The notes under the pieces: model-generated
Told to the model about the DNA's origin: nothing
The model's database searches: none
Seen by the model: only the letters and a program-made list of their open reading frames with translations
IMG/VR virus record: IMGVR_UViG_3300039313_000010
Source: a virus
Taxonomy: Duplodnaviria; Heunggongvirae; Uroviricota; Caudoviricetes
Direction: 5' to 3' (one strand)
Length of the DNA stretch: 4,795 nt
Made by a program: the position numbers and the translations under genes
Part shown: one piece after another, positions 1,747-4,693 of the stretch
Layout of the letters: each line of letters opens with the position of its first letter
Position numbering within the stretch: the stretch's first letter is position 1

Positions 1747-2688
1747 TCACCCCCTGAATCCTGCCGGGATCTGGCTGTAGTCCACGTTGTCGTAACTGGC
1801 TTTGAAGTACGGGTCTTCACGTTTTTCTGTGTGCGTGCTGACGGACGGCGATAAGCGCAGGGAAAGCTCATCCCATTTTTCCCGCAACTTCGACGGGCTG
1901 AGCACGTTACGGCACCAGAACGGATCGCGGCTGACGCGGCTGTACATCTCGCAGATTTGTTTGTGAGTACGACCATCCTGCACACACATCAGGCGAATTT
2001 CGTTTGCCCAGGCTGTCCAGTTAGGTTCTTTGGGACGAACCACCTCGCCGTCACATTCGGCGGCCTGCTCGTACAGGGCGATGATTTTTTTCCAGAGCCA
2101 CTGTGCGCAGGTCAAATCATCCTGCGTTCCCCACTGGCGCTTTATAGGGCTGAATACAACCGCATCAGGATGGCGAGTTAAAAACTCCTGTTCAGCCGTC
2201 TGCGTGTCCGGTTGCGAAGCGTCCGGACGAGAAGGTTTTTTATCTGACGGATCATGTTTTGATTTTACTGACGGATCCCCGCCAGATTCTGACGGGTGAA
2301 AACCCGCTTTTTTGCCAGATTTCGACGCATCAAATTTTGACGGGTCAGATTTTGATGCGTCAGATTTTGACGGGTCAGAATCTGACAGTTGAGAAAATGC
2401 CGCTGCCTGAAGCTTCGCAACGTTAAGCTGATAAACATTCGACGCATTGCGGTTACCCTGGCGACGCGCCCTACGCGTTAACCAGCCTTCTGCTTCCAGC
2501 CGTGCGATAGCCGTTCTGACGGTACTCATCCCCGCGCCAATCTGGCGGGCAATGGTTTCAATTGATGGCCAGCACACACCTTCGTCATTACTGAAATCAG
2601 CCAGGCGGGCCATAATTGCCACGCTGGATAATTTCATGCCTGATGCAGCGCAACCATCCCATACATAGCCGGTTAATTTAGTGCTCAT
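1747..2688 (-). CDS. Phage replication initiation protein (lambda O-like): N-terminal HTH domain, iteron-encoded repeat linker, C-terminal domain
   Basis: 313-aa ORF with RBS GAGG 6 nt before ATG 2688. N-terminal segment (SSVAIMARLADFSNDEGVCWPSIETIARQIGAGMSTVRTAIARLEAEGWL) is HTH-like. The central peptide repeat SDPSK/SDASK/SDPSK/FDASK is encoded by 15-bp tandem DNA repeats, the same layout as the lambda O gene carrying ori-lambda iterons. Sits where O sits relative to cro and cII. Confidence 0.85.
   Translation of the reverse strand: MSTKLTGYVWDGCAASGMKLSSVAIMARLADFSNDEGVCWPSIETIARQIGAGMSTVRTAIARLEAEGWLTRRARRQGNRNASNVYQLNVAKLQAAAFSQLSDSDPSKSDASKSDPSKFDASKSGKKAGFHPSESGGDPSVKSKHDPSDKKPSRPDASQPDTQTAEQEFLTRHPDAVVFSPIKRQWGTQDDLTCAQWLWKKIIALYEQAAECDGEVVRPKEPNWTAWANEIRLMCVQDGRTHKQICEMYSRVSRDPFWCRNVLSPSKLREKWDELSLRLSPSVSTHTEKREDPYFKASYDNVDYSQIPAGFRG
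2242..2391. repeat. Iteron array, candidate phage replication origin inside the initiator gene
   Basis: Five exactly phased 15-bp units at 2317, 2332, 2347, 2362 and 2377 (agatttcgacgcatc / aaattttgacgggtc / agattttgatgcgtc / agattttgacgggtc / agaatctgacagttg), plus three degenerate copies at 2242-2298 containing tctgacgg or actgacgg. Each unit has a short GTCA...TGAC dyad. Moderately AT-rich flank at 2231-2270. Confidence 0.65.
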
Positions 2689-2697
2689 GACCGACCT

Positions 2698-3036
2698 CTA
2701 TTTCCCTGAATTTACGACGAAACTGTTCGAGCGGGCTGAAGCACTCATGCTCATAGCCTTCGCGGAGGTAGATAACACGTTGTGTTTCCGGTTCCCAACG
2801 AATGACTCTGACGGGCACTCCGTAGTGATCTTTGAACCAGCGGTTAACTTGTCGCAAAGGACTGTCTCCTTCTGCCGGTTGAAATCACCCACAGCCCACT
2901 CAGCAAAGCTGTGGGTTACAATTTCCCTGTCACCTGGTACATTCACTGCATAGCAATATTCCACCTTCGCTTTTCCACCCGGTACAGGAAGCGCAATCAG
3001 TTGCGAGCGACGGTAGTGTGTTGTTAAACTGTTCAT
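2698..3036 (-). CDS. Hypothetical protein, 112 aa, between the cII-position gene and the replication initiator
   Basis: ATG 3036-3034 overlaps the upstream TGA as ATGA; the stop at 2698-2700 lies 10 nt before the RBS and ATG of the initiator gene, so it fits the operon. No family recognised. A plus-strand ORF (2681..2953) is open antisense to it, so coding strand is not fully certain. Confidence 0.5.
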
Positions 3037-3590
3037 GCGTTAGTTTCTCCACAACCAGAAGCAATCGACGCCACGACGCCCGGAGCTGCACACTCGCGGG
3101 CGTCATTACTTTCTGAAACACAAAAGATTTTGTAGACCAGTGCTGCATGCTCCTGCAGCTTCGAAATTGAGAGGTACAGCTCGTCGTTAATTGCTGTCTT
3201 CTCATGCGGTTCCACTACACCGTCTTCGATTGCTGAACGAATCTGTTTTGAATAACTGCCGATCTGTTCAATGACTTCCAGCAGACGCTGGTTAATATCG
3301 GCGTTGTCCACATCCTCGACGTCAGGAAGAGACACAAATACGCCATTTGCAGACTGCGCCACAGCATCAGCAATGAAGTGAGTGCCACCAGCACGCTGTA
3401 AAACCATTGCCCATCCCAGCGGGAAAATCTGATCGCCATCGGCACGAAGGCGGTTAAATAATGCGTTCTCTGTTACGTCCAGCCAGTCAGCAGCTTCAGC
3501 GTACCCCCCCGGCAACGCTGCGATAGTTTTTCTGACAGCTTTCACGTACCACTCAGGCTGTTTTTCTATTTTCCAGTGATGCTTACCCAC
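3033..3590 (-). CDS. Early regulatory-region protein in the cII position (about 185 aa), function uncertain
   Basis: Track ORF 3033..3701. Start trimmed to GTG 3590-3588, which has a strong RBS (GAGGAG, 6-nt spacer) and begins 28 nt after the cro-like stop. The upstream ATGs at 3701 and 3668 have no RBS and would overlap the cro-like gene by 50-80 nt. Resemblance to YdaT-like prophage proteins is a guess from position only. Confidence 0.65.
3075..3115 (+). terminator. Candidate intrinsic terminator hairpin on the plus strand (possible oop-like antisense RNA 3' end)
   Basis: 8-bp GC-rich stem GACGCCCG (3075-3082) pairing with CGGGCGTC (3097-3104), 14-nt loop, then ATTACTTTCTG (6 of 11 T). Only the plus-strand transcript gets a U-rich tail. 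Lies inside the 3' part of the minus-strand cII-position gene. The T-tract is imperfect. Confidence 0.3.
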
Positions 3591-3618
3591 GGTTAACTCC
3601 TCGTTTCTGTGGTTACGT

Positions 3619-3882
3619 TTACGCAGCTGAACCGCTAACTTTTGAATAGCACTCAGGTAATCCATCATTTGGATTGGGGTAAATATCAGGACGCAGTTCA
3701 TGAGGGGTCACGGACCAGTTTCCCAACTCACAAAGTTGTAAAACCCGTTCTGACGGGACTTGATTGTTAATTACCCAATTAGCGACGGATTGAGTGGACT
3801 TAAAACCAAAGTGACGGGCTACTTCAGATAAAGATTTTCCCGCAGCTTTTACTGCTTTCTCTGTGTAGTTTTGAGATGACAT
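3619..3882 (-). CDS. Cro-like HTH DNA-binding protein (Cro/YdaS-type), first gene of the rightward-equivalent early operon
   Basis: 87-aa ORF with an HTH segment (KSLSEVARHFGFKSTQSVANWV) followed by VPSERVLQLCELGNWSVTPHELRPDIY. RBS GGAGAAAGG lies just upstream of ATG 3882. Divergent from the repressor gene. Confidence 0.8.
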   Translation of the reverse strand: MSSQNYTEKAVKAAGKSLSEVARHFGFKSTQSVANWVINNQVPSERVLQLCELGNWSVTPHELRPDIYPNPNDGLPECYSKVSGSAA

Positions 3883-3952: not shown

Positions 3953-4693
3953 ATGACTAGCGTATGTGATGCGAGTAACCTTCTACCTATGGTAGAAGAA
4001 CAGAAGTATCCAGATTTCGCCAAGAGACTAAACGAGCTAATGACAAACAAGGGAATTTCTGTCACCCAACTCAAAAGTCTTGTGGGCGTTACATATGAAA
4101 TGGCGCGGCGATACACAATCGGCGCTGCGAAGCCTCGTGCCTCTGTCATGAATAAACTTGCATTGGCTCTGGGGGTATCAGCTTCATATTTAGAATATGG
4201 TGTTGGCGAGAGAGAAGGATGTAAGGAAATGGCAAGCATCCCCAATCCAACAAAACCCGATGTATACAGGATAGAAGTTTTGGATCTTAGCGTTAGCGCA
4301 GGACCTGGAACCTATATGCTTTCAGACTATGTTGATGTGCTCTACGCCATTGAGTTCACAACAGAGCATGCCCGTTCTCTTTTCGGTAATCGTTCTCAAG
4401 ATGATATTAAAGTTATGACTGTAAATGGCGACAGCATGTCCCCTACTCTAGTTTCCGGAGATCGACTGTTTGTCGACATTTCTGTTCGCAACTTCCAAAC
4501 TGATGGTGTTTACTCTTTCGTTTATGGTAAGACGTTCCACGTTAAACGTCTACAAATGCAAGGCAACAAACTCGCCGTTCTTTCGGATAATCCAGCCTAT
4601 GAGAAATGGTACATTGATGAGAAGTCCCAAGATCAACTTTATGTTATGGGCAAAGCATTGATACACGAATCAATTAAATACAACCGGCTTTAG
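3953..4693 (+). CDS. Phage cI-like repressor: N-terminal XRE-type HTH, C-terminal S24 (LexA/CI-type) self-cleaving peptidase domain
   Basis: 246-aa ORF. HTH segment FAKRLNELMTNKGISVTQLKSLVGVTYEMARRY. Candidate Ala-Gly cleavage site in LSVSAGPG. Catalytic Ser motif in MTVNGDSMSPTLVSGDRLFVD and Lys motif in FHVKRLQMQGNKLAVL. No RBS before ATG 3953, which fits a leaderless PRM-type transcript; ATG 3989 (MVEEQKYPDF...) is the alternative start. Confidence 0.9.
   Translation: MTSVCDASNLLPMVEEQKYPDFAKRLNELMTNKGISVTQLKSLVGVTYEMARRYTIGAAKPRASVMNKLALALGVSASYLEYGVGEREGCKEMASIPNPTKPDVYRIEVLDLSVSAGPGTYMLSDYVDVLYAIEFTTEHARSLFGNRSQDDIKVMTVNGDSMSPTLVSGDRLFVDISVRNFQTDGVYSFVYGKTFHVKRLQMQGNKLAVLSDNPAYEKWYIDEKSQDQLYVMGKALIHESIKYNRL
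3981..3997. promoter_or_regulatory. Perfect 17-bp palindrome TTCTACC-TAT-GGTAGAA centred on the in-frame ATG 3989 of the repressor gene
   Basis: 7-bp perfect inverted arms, read directly. Shares the CTAC...TAG half-sites with the two intergenic sites. Its centre is 45 bp from the centre of the 3936-3952 site. Confidence 0.4.

What the first reader, a model, noticed from the sequence alone, without database searches (positions are those of the whole stretch)
2681..2953. Long plus-strand ORF antisense to the 112-aa gene and overlapping the initiator start
A 90-aa plus-strand ORF lies opposite the minus-strand 112-aa ORF, with its ATG overlapping the initiator start region. Its first half is globular-looking ([53 protein letters not shown]) with about 40% G at codon position 1, against about 14% in its second half. 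The minus-strand ORF has proper operon context (ATGA overlap and a downstream RBS) but a low-complexity, Ser-rich C-terminal half. The two share wobble positions. Either one is a shadow of the other or this is a genuine antisense-encoded small protein; I cannot decide from sequence alone.
Basis: seen in the sequence. Interest (0 to 1): 0.4.

Follow-up and report, generated by a model that had tools for sequence, protein, structure and literature searches.

The report
Shadow ORF opposite nested prophage genes

Summary
The window is the immunity/replication region of an e14-like lambdoid prophage of E. coli. The plus-strand ORF at 2681-2953 exists, but I find no sign that it is a gene.

- **Mirror of a missed gene.** Its first 59 codons are the exact reverse-complement codons of a third ORF, 2678-2857 on the minus strand. 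That ORF matches Pfam DUF4222 (E 9e-19) and has its own AAGGAG ribosome-binding site and a TTG start.
- **Chance level.** Given only the minus-strand proteins, the plus frame stays open for 90 or more codons in 27% of synonymous resamplings.
- **Not conserved.** Stops break it in 12 of 35 homologous loci. Its ends drift. It has no ribosome-binding site and no promoter-like site. 16 of 20 polymorphic sites fall on its first codon position, which is the DUF4222 wobble position.

The 112-aa ORF is ymfM (SfiC). Its N-terminal half is under purifying selection. Its tail reads through DUF4222 in another frame without sequence constraint, yet that frame is open in all 34 distinct homologues (parsimony test P about 2e-8). 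The two minus-strand genes therefore look like a conserved nested pair. The K-12 reference annotates only ymfM and PGAP annotates only DUF4222. The published filamentation clones carry both.

The parts
2681..2953 (+). The ORF of the finding: 90 codons, non-coding shadow ORF
   Evidence: It is listed. Codons 1-59 are the reverse complement, triplet for triplet, of the DUF4222 gene. It has no Pfam or NCBIfam match. The chance of staying open for at least 90 codons is 0.27. It is broken by stops in 12 of 35 homologous loci and its ends vary by hundreds of bases. Its pN/pS is 1.30. No promoter-like site is found on the plus strand, and no Shine-Dalgarno sequence precedes 2681 or 2687.
2678..2857 (-). 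DUF4222 gene, 59 aa, TTG start; the real coding frame under the first two thirds of the plus ORF
   Evidence: Pfam PF13973 match: E 8.6e-19, 67 bits against a cut-off of 27, profile positions 3-52 of 53. PGAP annotates it as WP_001250269.1 in APEC O18 and BW25113. The start codon at the same aligned position is ATG in 28, GTG in 3 and TTG in 3 of 34 homologues. Its pN/pS is 0.21. 16 of 20 polymorphic sites are at its third codon position. The AlphaFold model has pLDDT 83 and shows a small beta-barrel.
2866..2871 (-). Shine-Dalgarno AAGGAG, 8 nt upstream of the DUF4222 TTG start
   Evidence: Read from the sequence. A purine-rich GGAG-like motif 8-11 nt upstream of the start is present in most of the homologous loci.
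2698..3036 (-). ymfM (SfiC), 112 aa. The N-terminal half (2858-3036) is unique coding sequence. The tail (2698-2857) reads through the DUF4222 gene one base out of phase.
   Evidence: MG1655 annotates the homologue as b1148, 'cell division inhibitor YmfM'. N-terminal half: dN/dS is mostly 0.1-0.6, and 14 of 22 polymorphic sites are at codon position 3. Tail: pN/pS is 1.74 and AlphaFold pLDDT is below 50 for residues 53-106. Even so, the frame is open in all 34 distinct homologues. All 16 inferred changes at the four stop-risk columns stay pyrimidine, against 18 of 55 at other four-fold sites.
3033..3036 (-). ATGA overlap: stop of the cII-like ymfL and start of ymfM (translational coupling)
   Evidence: Read from the sequence. 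The same GGAGA..ACGCATG context occurs in most homologues.
2695..2700 (-). ymfM stop TAG (2698-2700), overlapping the GAGG ribosome-binding site (2695-2698) of the replication gene
   Evidence: Read from the sequence. The ymfM-frame stop falls at the same DUF4222 codon (ATA or TTA followed by a purine) in 31 of 34 homologues.
1747..2688 (-). O-like replication initiator. Its ATG (2686-2688) lies inside the last codons of DUF4222 and in the CATG palindrome that gives the plus ORF its ATG.
   Evidence: PHROG 391, 'replication initiation O-like', E 3e-134, and Pfam HTH_36. Iteron-like repeats with a 15-nt period lie at 2239-2390.
3033..3701 (-). ymfL, cII-like regulator, upstream gene of the operon (PGAP start corresponds to window 3590)
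   Evidence: Pfam Phage_CP76 E 2e-13 and PHROG 101, 'CII-like transcriptional activator'. PGAP names it 'protein YmfL'.

Best explanation
The plus-strand ORF is not a gene. It is a shadow ORF, a by-product of how the opposite strand is encoded.

The minus strand carries the early operon of an e14-like prophage: cro-like gene, ymfL (cII-like), ymfM, DUF4222 and an O-like replication initiator. Two genes are nested there. ymfM (112 aa) starts at the ATGA overlap with ymfL. A 59-aa DUF4222 gene starts inside ymfM, one base out of phase, from its own AAGGAG ribosome-binding site and TTG codon. Both end at the ribosome-binding site and start codon of the initiator.

The plus ORF's first 59 codons pair triplet for triplet with the DUF4222 codons. 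A stop can arise in that frame only from a TTA, CTA or TCA codon in DUF4222. Such codons are few, and some are also excluded because they would close the ymfM frame. The plus frame is therefore open about half the time by chance. Its protein-like first half and G-rich first codon position mirror DUF4222.

Shown here:
- The Pfam membership of the 59-aa ORF.
- The frame-specific substitution patterns.
- The loss of the plus ORF in homologues.
- The selective avoidance of stops in the ymfM frame.

Inferred, not shown:
- That both minus-strand products are actually made.
- That translation of ymfM through DUF4222 serves to deliver ribosomes to the initiator start, or simply adds a disordered tail.
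- That DUF4222 is a small beta-barrel regulator like its relative RgdR.
For: - **Locus identity.** Window 2600-3100 is 100% identical to the E. coli APEC O18 chromosome and 98.8% identical to K-12-derived strains such as BW25113. The region is present in 2004 of 5426 complete E. coli genomes.
- **The third ORF.** The 59-aa ORF matches Pfam DUF4222 at E 8.6e-19 and is the only gene PGAP calls in this stretch.
- **Polymorphism.** Among 69 close haplotypes, 16 of 20 variable sites in the overlap are at DUF4222 codon position 3. That position is codon position 1 of the plus ORF.
- **Divergent homologues.** Among 14 divergent representatives, pN/pS is 0.21 in the DUF4222 frame, 1.74 in the ymfM frame and 1.30 in the plus frame.
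- **Chance openness of the plus frame.** It is expected to be open over DUF4222 with P 0.42-0.51, and for at least 90 codons with P 0.27.
- **Observed openness of the plus frame.** It is open in 24 of 34 distinct homologues over the first 53 codons and stop-free over the whole gene in 23 of 35 loci. Its stop-to-stop length ranges from 32 to 157 codons.
- **No expression signals.** There is no promoter-like site, no Rfam family and no Pfam or NCBIfam hit for the plus ORF.
- **The ymfM frame.** It is open in 34 of 34 homologues, against an expectation of 0.07 per sequence. At cluster representatives, purine-ending codons at stop-risk Val/Leu codons number 0 of 57, against 12 of 31 at non-risk ones (Fisher P 7e-7). 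All 16 inferred changes at risk columns stay pyrimidine, against 18 of 55 elsewhere (P 1.7e-8).
- **N-terminal half of ymfM.** dN/dS is about 0.1-0.6.
- **Control.** The DUF4222 gene rgdR has 7 stops in the equivalent frame.
Against: - No expression data of any kind were available, so absence of plus-strand translation is inferred and not shown.
- The plus ORF is intact in all 69 close haplotypes. These are too similar for a stop to be expected, so this says little either way.
- It is open in 71% of distinct homologues against about 42% expected. This excess is modest. Shared ancestry and the ymfM-open constraint, which raises the expectation to about 0.6, can account for it.
- Automatic gene callers have called the plus ORF in some phage records (URC09955.1), and PHROGs holds families built from such calls (phrog_13771 and phrog_14536).
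- For the nested-pair part: three of six distant DUF4222 genes without a ymfM-like upstream ORF (YeP2, PSTCR8lys, yong2) also have a largely open equivalent frame. Part of the openness may therefore be intrinsic to the family's codon choice.
- The independence of the 14 sequence clusters is approximate.
Confidence: 0.9

Rival explanations
1. The plus-strand ORF encodes a genuine small antisense protein, translated from a transcript that runs against the early operon.
For: The ORF is 90 codons long with in-frame GTG and ATG starts. Its first half looks protein-like. It is intact in all 69 close haplotypes and open in 24 of 34 distinct homologues. Gene callers and PHROGs list it.
Against: It is interrupted in 12 of 35 homologous loci, and both of its ends vary. 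16 of 20 polymorphic sites hit its first codon position and its pN/pS is 1.30. It has no Shine-Dalgarno sequence, no promoter-like site and no curated family match. Its length is within chance (P 0.27). Its protein-like look is what the mirror image of a real gene's codons would give.
Confidence: 0.03
2. Only DUF4222 is functional in the overlap. The ymfM reading frame runs on through DUF4222 by chance and inheritance, and the tail is neither selected nor needed. On this view the real ymfM product is its first 60 or so residues.
For: The tail has no amino-acid constraint (pN/pS 1.74) and is predicted to be unstructured. PGAP does not call ymfM. Three distant DUF4222 genes also have a mostly open equivalent frame. 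With the family's own codon preferences, my rough hand estimate of chance openness is 0.15-0.33, higher than the 0.07 obtained with local codon usage.
Against: The frame is open in all 34 distinct sequences, which fall into 14 clusters. Four-fold sites are otherwise nearly randomised between sequences (median pairwise identity 0.41). All 16 inferred changes at the four stop-risk columns avoid purines, against 33% elsewhere (P 1.7e-8), and the Fisher test gives P 7e-7. The ymfM stop falls at the same place in 31 of 34 sequences. The 63-aa 'short YmfM' entries are sporadic frameshift variants, not a natural short form. rgdR, phiNP and EKP1 have 7, 7 and 2 stops in that frame.
Confidence: 0.15
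3. The 112-aa ORF and the 59-aa ORF are the two halves of one ancestral gene split by a frameshift (a pseudogene or sequencing error), or they are joined in vivo by programmed -1 ribosomal frameshifting.
For: A shift of -1 takes the ymfM frame into the DUF4222 frame. The protein database holds YmfM-N::DUF4222 fusions of 102-119 aa (P0085, P0150, P0178, P0184).
Against: Those fusions are rare and each switches frame at a different point, as expected of random indels or assembly errors. The two-frame arrangement is the same in all 34 distinct homologues and in about 2000 E. coli genomes. DUF4222 has a conserved start codon and a ribosome-binding site at one aligned position. In L007, L008, L182 and L201 its frame is closed only 1-2 codons upstream of that start. 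I saw no slippery heptamer in the short window where both frames are open (read by eye).
Confidence: 0.04

Closest known systems
Shadow (mirror) ORFs on the strand opposite a real gene, in the codon-aligned antisense frame
   Same: The plus ORF's triplets coincide with those of the DUF4222 gene. Stops can arise only from TTA, CTA or TCA sense codons, so the frame is stop-poor. The expected chance of being open is 0.42-0.51. The related gene rgdR has only 1 stop in 99 codons in this frame.
   Different: Here the shadow falls across two nested genes. The need to keep the ymfM frame open removes some TTA and CTA codons, which further favours an open plus frame (0.60 against 0.51).
ymfM / SfiC of E. 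coli K-12 cryptic prophage e14 (b1148), SOS-inducible inhibitor of Z-ring formation (Ansari et al., bioRxiv 10.1101/2020.11.19.390815)
   Same: It is the same gene. The region is 98.8% identical to K-12-derived strains, in the same position between ymfL and the replication gene, and the same length of 112 aa.
   Different: The published work treats the ORF as one gene. The cloned ymfM ORF also contains the DUF4222 ribosome-binding site, its start and 53 of its 59 codons, which is the whole Pfam domain. The library clone D1-8E and the ymfM deletions cover both genes as well. The window's prophage has an intact replication gene, whereas in K-12 it is fused to a terminase fragment.
RgdR (ECs1581), the only DUF4222 protein I found with experimental work: a prophage regulator of LEE type III secretion and motility in EHEC O157 (Flockhart et al. 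2012, PMC3378721)
   Same: It belongs to the same Pfam family (RgdR residues 17-68, E 2e-23) and is 41% identical over 49 residues. Both are small prophage proteins encoded immediately upstream of a replication gene and overlapping its start.
   Different: RgdR is 99 aa, with extra N- and C-terminal segments. Its RGD motif aligns with V-N-R in the window protein. It lies in a P4-like element upstream of a primase. No gene overlaps it: the frame equivalent to ymfM has 7 stops. A regulatory role for the window protein is therefore only a lead.
Out-of-frame nested phage gene pairs such as lambda Rz/Rz1 (from my own knowledge, not tested here)
   Same: One gene lies within another on the same strand in a different frame. 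Each has its own start and ribosome-binding site, and the arrangement is conserved across related phages.
   Different: DUF4222 is not fully embedded. It runs 20 nt past the ymfM stop. The two products have no known functional link. The outer gene's overlapping part shows no amino-acid constraint, only stop avoidance.

Membership tests
Genuine protein-coding gene on the plus strand (the finding) | Reading frame kept open in diverged homologues | tested here: not met
   There are 1-3 stops in the equivalent frame in 12 of 35 loci. Stop-to-stop length ranges from 32 to 157 codons and both ends shift. Over the first 53 codons, 10 of 34 distinct sequences are broken.
Genuine protein-coding gene on the plus strand (the finding) | Purifying selection in its own frame | tested here: not met
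   pN/pS is 1.30. 16 of 20 polymorphic sites in the DUF4222 overlap fall on its first codon position.
Genuine protein-coding gene on the plus strand (the finding) | Translation and transcription signals, or a match to a curated protein family | tested here: not met
   No Shine-Dalgarno sequence precedes 2681 or 2687. No promoter-like site is found in 2300-3300. There is no Pfam hit, and the only NCBIfam listing is far below its cut-off (11.9 bits against 425). The PHROG hits reflect automatic ORF calls.
Genuine protein-coding gene on the plus strand (the finding) | Detected transcript, ribosome footprints or peptide | not testable with these tools
Pfam DUF4222 (PF13973), for the 59-aa ORF 2678-2857 | Profile match above the curated gathering score over the whole domain | tested here: met
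   67.3 bits against a cut-off of 27, E 8.6e-19, profile positions 3-52 of 53. PGAP names it 'DUF4222 domain-containing protein'.
Pfam DUF4222 (PF13973), for the 59-aa ORF 2678-2857 | Behaves as an independent gene: conserved start, ribosome-binding site and purifying selection | tested here: met
   A start codon is at one aligned position in 34 of 34 sequences (ATG 28, GTG 3, TTG 3), with a purine-rich motif upstream in most loci. pN/pS is 0.21. The model is confident, with pLDDT 83.
RgdR-type regulators (functional subgroup of DUF4222) | RGD motif at residues 20-22, shown to matter for T3S activation (PMC3378721) | tested here: not met
   In the pairwise alignment the motif position corresponds to V-N-R in the window protein. 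Identity is 41% over 49 residues.
RgdR-type regulators (functional subgroup of DUF4222) | Regulatory activity on LEE1 or motility, and non-specific DNA binding | not testable with these tools
   These are experimental properties.
YmfM / SfiC of prophage e14 | Orthology: same sequence, length and position between ymfL and the replication gene | tested here: met
   The region is 98.8% identical at the DNA level to K-12-derived strains. MG1655 b1148 is a 339-nt ORF next to ymfL with an ATGA-type overlap.
YmfM / SfiC of prophage e14 | Inhibition of Z-ring formation caused by the 112-aa product itself | not testable with these tools
   The published clones and deletions contain both nested ORFs. 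No frame-specific mutant is described in the text I could read.
Conserved out-of-frame nested gene pair (Rz/Rz1-like arrangement) | Two same-strand ORFs in different frames, each with its own start signals | tested here: met
   ymfM has an ATG in the ATGA overlap, with GGAG upstream. DUF4222 has a TTG start with AAGGAG 8 nt upstream.
Conserved out-of-frame nested gene pair (Rz/Rz1-like arrangement) | Both frames maintained by selection across diverged relatives | tested here: met
   The DUF4222 frame has pN/pS 0.21. The ymfM frame has no stop in 34 of 34 sequences, against 0.07 expected. Stop-creating synonymous changes are avoided (P 7e-7, P 1.7e-8). Caveat: some distant DUF4222 genes are also largely open in that frame.
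Conserved out-of-frame nested gene pair (Rz/Rz1-like arrangement) | Both protein products made in vivo | not testable with these tools
   This needs tagging, ribosome profiling or proteomics of an induced lysogen.

The most novel reading that the evidence does not exclude
The stretch annotated in K-12 as the single gene ymfM (SfiC) is a conserved dual-coding locus. The SOS-inducible block of Z-ring formation assigned to the 112-aa YmfM protein may be caused wholly or partly by the nested 59-aa DUF4222 protein, which every published ymfM clone and deletion also carries. I put the dual-coding part at about 0.8. The probability given below is for the stronger claim that DUF4222 is needed for the filamentation phenotype.
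Probability: 0.3. Interest if true: 0.6.

Novelty: new member of a known kind. Interest (0 to 1): 0.4.

Why it matters
The plus ORF on its own does not matter. It is an ordinary shadow ORF and should not be annotated, although some phage records do annotate it.

What matters is what casts the shadow. The same 340 bases are annotated as ymfM alone in the E. coli K-12 reference and as DUF4222 alone by PGAP in thousands of genomes. The comparative evidence says both frames are maintained. ymfM was published as the long-sought sfiC division inhibitor on the basis of clones and deletions that contain both ORFs. The assignment of that phenotype to one protein is therefore open, and two point mutations could settle it. 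The locus also gives a clean natural example of a frame kept open by stop avoidance without any amino-acid constraint.

Tried and rejected
- **Programmed -1 frameshift or split pseudogene.** Rejected. DUF4222 has a conserved start and ribosome-binding site. Its frame closes 1-2 codons upstream of the start in four loci. The database fusions switch frame at different points.
- **A natural 63-aa 'short YmfM' (phrog_20047) ending at the DUF4222 start.** Rejected. These entries are frameshift variants that run into the third frame.
- **An oop-like antisense RNA or other RNA element that would give the plus strand a transcript.** The Rfam scan gave only a spurious miRNA hit in the iteron repeats. 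The promoter scan found nothing.
- **Two scans of viral contigs with the window proteins.** They returned only near-identical E. coli prophages. These were useless for divergence tests but served for the polymorphism count.
- **Sequence search of the PDB with both protein alignments.** Nothing for DUF4222, and only chance-level hits (E above 0.4) for YmfM.
- **Fold search for DUF4222.** It gave only weak matches to small beta-barrel domains of the SH3, KOW and Tudor type (best E 0.058, TM about 0.65). This is not enough to name a function.
- **First simulation script.** It timed out and was rerun.
- **Records not available.** NC_002655 is not in the genome collection. The e14 analysis paper PMC331406 is not held.
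- **Not done.** I ran no further search on the plus ORF translation, because the DNA-level comparison already answered the question.
Full report
**The observation.** The ORF listing shows a plus-strand ORF of 90 codons at 2681-2953 (GTG start) opposite a minus-strand ORF of 112 codons at 2698-3036. The in-frame ATG at 2687-2689 lies in the palindrome CATG, whose other strand holds the ATG of the 313-aa initiator gene at 2688-2686.
- The ATGA overlap is at 3033-3036.
- The GAGG ribosome-binding site ahead of the initiator is at 2695-2698.
- The tail is Ser-rich (11 of the last 52 residues).
- The plus ORF and the 112-aa ORF share their third codon positions.

The composition figures are overstated. 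G at codon position 1 is 34% in the first 59 codons and 19% in the last 31. Its triplet boundaries coincide exactly with those of the plus ORF.

**Where we are.** Window 2600-3100 is 100% identical to the chromosome of E. coli APEC O18 and 98.8% identical to K-12-derived strains. The stretch is present in 2004 of 5426 complete E. coli genomes. It is the immunity and replication region of an e14-like lambdoid prophage. The genes are:
- a cI-like repressor on the plus strand (3953-4693);
- on the minus strand, a cro-like gene, ymfL (cII-like; Pfam Phage_CP76), the 112-aa ORF, and an O-like replication initiator with 15-nt iteron-like repeats.

In K-12 MG1655 the 112-aa ORF is b1148, annotated as 'cell division inhibitor YmfM'.

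**The third ORF is a real gene.**
- The 59-aa translation matches Pfam DUF4222 over the whole domain (E 8.6e-19, 67 bits against a cut-off of 27). The 112-aa and 90-aa translations match no Pfam family, and neither has an NCBIfam match near its cut-off.
- PGAP annotates exactly this ORF as WP_001250269.1, 'DUF4222 domain-containing protein', in both APEC O18 and BW25113. It annotates nothing for ymfM.
- The ORF has an AAGGAG motif 8 nt upstream of its TTG start (2866-2871).
- In 34 distinct homologous sequences the start codon at the same aligned position is ATG 28 times, GTG 3 times and TTG 3 times. Most loci have a purine-rich motif upstream. These sequences come from phage records and from one genome per bacterial species.
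- With an alignment of 48 relatives, AlphaFold gives a confident small beta-barrel (pLDDT 83).

**Which frame is under selection.**
- In 69 closely related haplotypes from viral contigs, 16 of the 20 variable sites in the overlap are at the third codon position of DUF4222. That position is the second codon position of ymfM and the first of the plus ORF.
- Among 14 diverged representatives, pN/pS in the overlap is 0.21 in the DUF4222 frame, 1.74 in the ymfM frame and 1.30 in the plus frame.
- Upstream of the overlap, the ymfM frame is constrained. 14 of 22 variable sites are at its third position, and dN/dS is mostly 0.1-0.6 within each of three sequence groups.
- Sequence-level purifying selection is therefore on the minus strand only.

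**The plus ORF is what chance gives.**
- In the codon-aligned antisense frame a stop needs a TTA, CTA or TCA codon on the sense strand.
- When the DUF4222 protein is re-encoded with the codon usage of the surrounding genes, that frame stays open in 42% of trials on average.
- When both minus-strand proteins of this window are re-encoded, the plus frame stays open for at least 59 codons in 51% of trials and for at least 90 codons in 27%. The figures are 60% and 32% if the ymfM frame is also required to stay open.
- In homologues the frame is stop-free over the first 53 codons in 24 of 34 distinct sequences and over the whole gene in 23 of 35 loci. Stop-to-stop lengths range from 32 to 157 codons and both ends move by up to about 200 nt.
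- Eight sequences carry TTA at one DUF4222 codon, which puts a stop in the plus frame. Nothing selects against such stops.
- There is no Shine-Dalgarno sequence before 2681 or 2687, no promoter-like site on either strand in 2300-3300 and no Rfam family.
- The G-rich first codon position mirrors the C-rich third position of DUF4222 (33% C).
- Some phage records and PHROG families do contain this translation. That only shows that gene callers are taken in by it.

**The unexpected part: the ymfM frame.**
- In every one of the 34 distinct homologues, the ORF that starts at the overlap with the cII-like gene runs through the whole DUF4222 gene, one base out of phase. In 31 of 34 it stops at the same DUF4222 codon, about 9 nt before the replication gene.
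- One exception, L201, reads on into a downstream gene. L202 is cut by a contig end.
- Given the DUF4222 protein and local codon usage, this frame should be open in only about 7% of sequences, with a range of 4-16%. The other sense frame has 2-10 stops over the whole gene.
- Synonymous sites are close to randomised between lineages. The median pairwise identity at four-fold sites is 0.41, and there are 14 clusters at a 0.7 threshold.
- Yet at the Val and Leu codons where a purine in the third position would create a stop in the ymfM frame, cluster representatives use a purine 0 times in 57. At Val and Leu codons where it would not, the count is 12 in 31 (Fisher P 7e-7).
- On a neighbour-joining tree, all 16 inferred changes at the four risk columns go from pyrimidine to pyrimidine. 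At other four-fold sites only 18 of 55 changes that start from a pyrimidine do so (P 1.7e-8).
- The tail itself has no amino-acid constraint and is predicted to be unstructured (pLDDT below 50 for residues 53-106).
- My reading is that the frame is kept open by selection, and therefore translated, while the peptide it encodes is free to vary.

**Controls and caveats.**
- The frame equivalent to ymfM has 7 stops in the characterised DUF4222 gene rgdR, 7 in Citrobacter phage phiNP and 2 in Elizabethkingia phage EKP1.
- In Yersinia phage YeP2, Providencia phage PSTCR8lys and Hafnia phage yong2 that frame is largely open without a ymfM-like upstream ORF. Part of the openness may be intrinsic.
- With the family's own codon preferences, my hand estimate of the chance of openness rises to roughly 0.15-0.33. 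The parsimony test does not depend on that figure.
- The 63-aa and the 102-119-aa variants in the protein database are sporadic frameshifts at different positions. They do not point to a short natural form, a fused ancestor or programmed frameshifting.

**What is known about the two genes.**
- Ansari et al. (bioRxiv 10.1101/2020.11.19.390815) cloned 'the open reading frame' of ymfM into pBAD24 and saw filamentation with loss of Z rings. They concluded that ymfM is the long-sought sfiC.
- That insert contains the DUF4222 ribosome-binding site, its start and 53 of its 59 codons, which is the whole Pfam domain.
- The original library clone D1-8E and the ymfM deletions also cover both ORFs.
- The preprint describes no frame-specific mutant, and no paper in the library links ymfM with DUF4222. 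I could not read the journal version.
- The only DUF4222 protein with experimental work that I found is RgdR (ECs1581). It is a 99-aa prophage regulator of type III secretion and motility with non-specific DNA binding (PMC3378721, PMC10877973).
- RgdR is 41% identical to the window protein over 49 residues, and its RGD motif is not conserved here.
- Like the window gene, rgdR sits immediately upstream of a replication gene and overlaps its start. The same neighbourhood is seen in phiNP, YeP2 and EKP1.
- The fold search gives only weak matches to SH3, KOW and Tudor-like beta-barrels.

**How it most likely works.** Shown:
- The plus ORF is a mirror image of DUF4222 and of part of ymfM, within chance expectation and not conserved.
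- DUF4222 is a conserved gene with its own start.
- The ymfM N-terminal half is a conserved coding region.
- The ymfM frame through DUF4222 is protected against stops.

Inferred: after derepression of the prophage, the early transcript is translated as a coupled chain. Ribosomes pass from ymfL to ymfM at the ATGA overlap. Some ribosomes initiate internally at the DUF4222 TTG. Both sets terminate on top of the initiator's ribosome-binding site and ATG, where they may promote its translation. Whether the YmfM tail has a role of its own, and which product blocks cell division, cannot be decided from sequence.

**Verdict.** The finding as written, a possible antisense-encoded protein, is not supported. 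It is an ordinary shadow ORF. Underneath it is a conserved out-of-frame nested gene pair. This is a known kind of arrangement in phages, but I found no description of it for this locus. The two main annotation systems each show only one of the two genes. Interest is moderate, because it reopens, in a directly testable way, which product is SfiC.

Noticed in passing
window 2678-3036; L204 (MG1655) 2323-2661; L001 and L002: The annotations conflict. The K-12 MG1655 reference annotates only ymfM (b1148, 'cell division inhibitor'). PGAP annotates only the nested DUF4222 gene and leaves the ymfM N-terminal half (window 2858-3032) without any feature.
   Followed up: yes
window 2239-2390: Iteron-like direct repeats with a 15-nt period lie inside the O-like replication gene and encode the repeated SKSD/ASKSD peptide. 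They are probably the phage origin. The only Rfam hit in the window (mir-5880, E 0.0025, far below its gathering score) falls on these repeats and is spurious.
   Followed up: partly
L210 (phage SfV) 752-1588; L211 (ST64B) 758-1915; L212; L201: In SfV, ST64B and Citrobacter braakii (L201), the ymfM-like ORF runs through DUF4222 and continues in frame into the downstream Rha/Ash-type regulator gene, giving one ORF of 279-405 codons that records annotate as a single 'transcriptional regulator' or 'antirepressor'. A Stx2a-converting phage (L212) shows the same read-through in that frame, but no ymfM-like start is evident there. It is unclear whether these are true fusions or an over-extended start.
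   Followed up: partly
proteins P0085, P0150, P0178, P0184, P0182, P0185, P0196: Public protein sets contain sporadic frameshift variants of this locus. Some are YmfM-N::DUF4222 fusions of 102-119 aa. Others are 63-aa truncations, and a 63-aa PHROG family (phrog_20047) looks to be built from such forms. Each switches frame at a different point, which suggests indels or assembly errors.
   Followed up: yes
L213 (E. coli O157 Sakai, prophage Sp7) 13305-13604; L207, L208, L209: DUF4222 genes, including the characterised regulator rgdR, repeatedly sit directly upstream of a replication gene (primase, O-like or HTH initiator), abutting or overlapping its start. This holds in lambdoid phages, a P4-like element and an Elizabethkingia phage, and hints at a replication-linked role for the family.
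   Followed up: partly
L004 (phage vB_EcoS-733R5) 1513-1800: A deposited phage genome annotates the plus-strand shadow ORF as a hypothetical protein (URC09955.1) and omits both real minus-strand genes. PHROGs holds families built from such calls (phrog_13771, phrog_14536).
   Followed up: yes
alignment A3: P0190, P0195, P0208: Some YmfM proteins are mosaics. They combine an SfV-type or mEp390-type N-terminal half with an e14-type tail, so recombination breakpoints fall near the DUF4222 start and the tail travels with the DUF4222 gene.
   Followed up: no
window 3033-3701: The longest ORF for ymfL is 222 aa from the ATG at 3701. PGAP starts the gene at the position equivalent to window 3590 (185 aa), and the longer form overlaps the cro-like gene by 83 nt. 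The true start was not examined.
   Followed up: no
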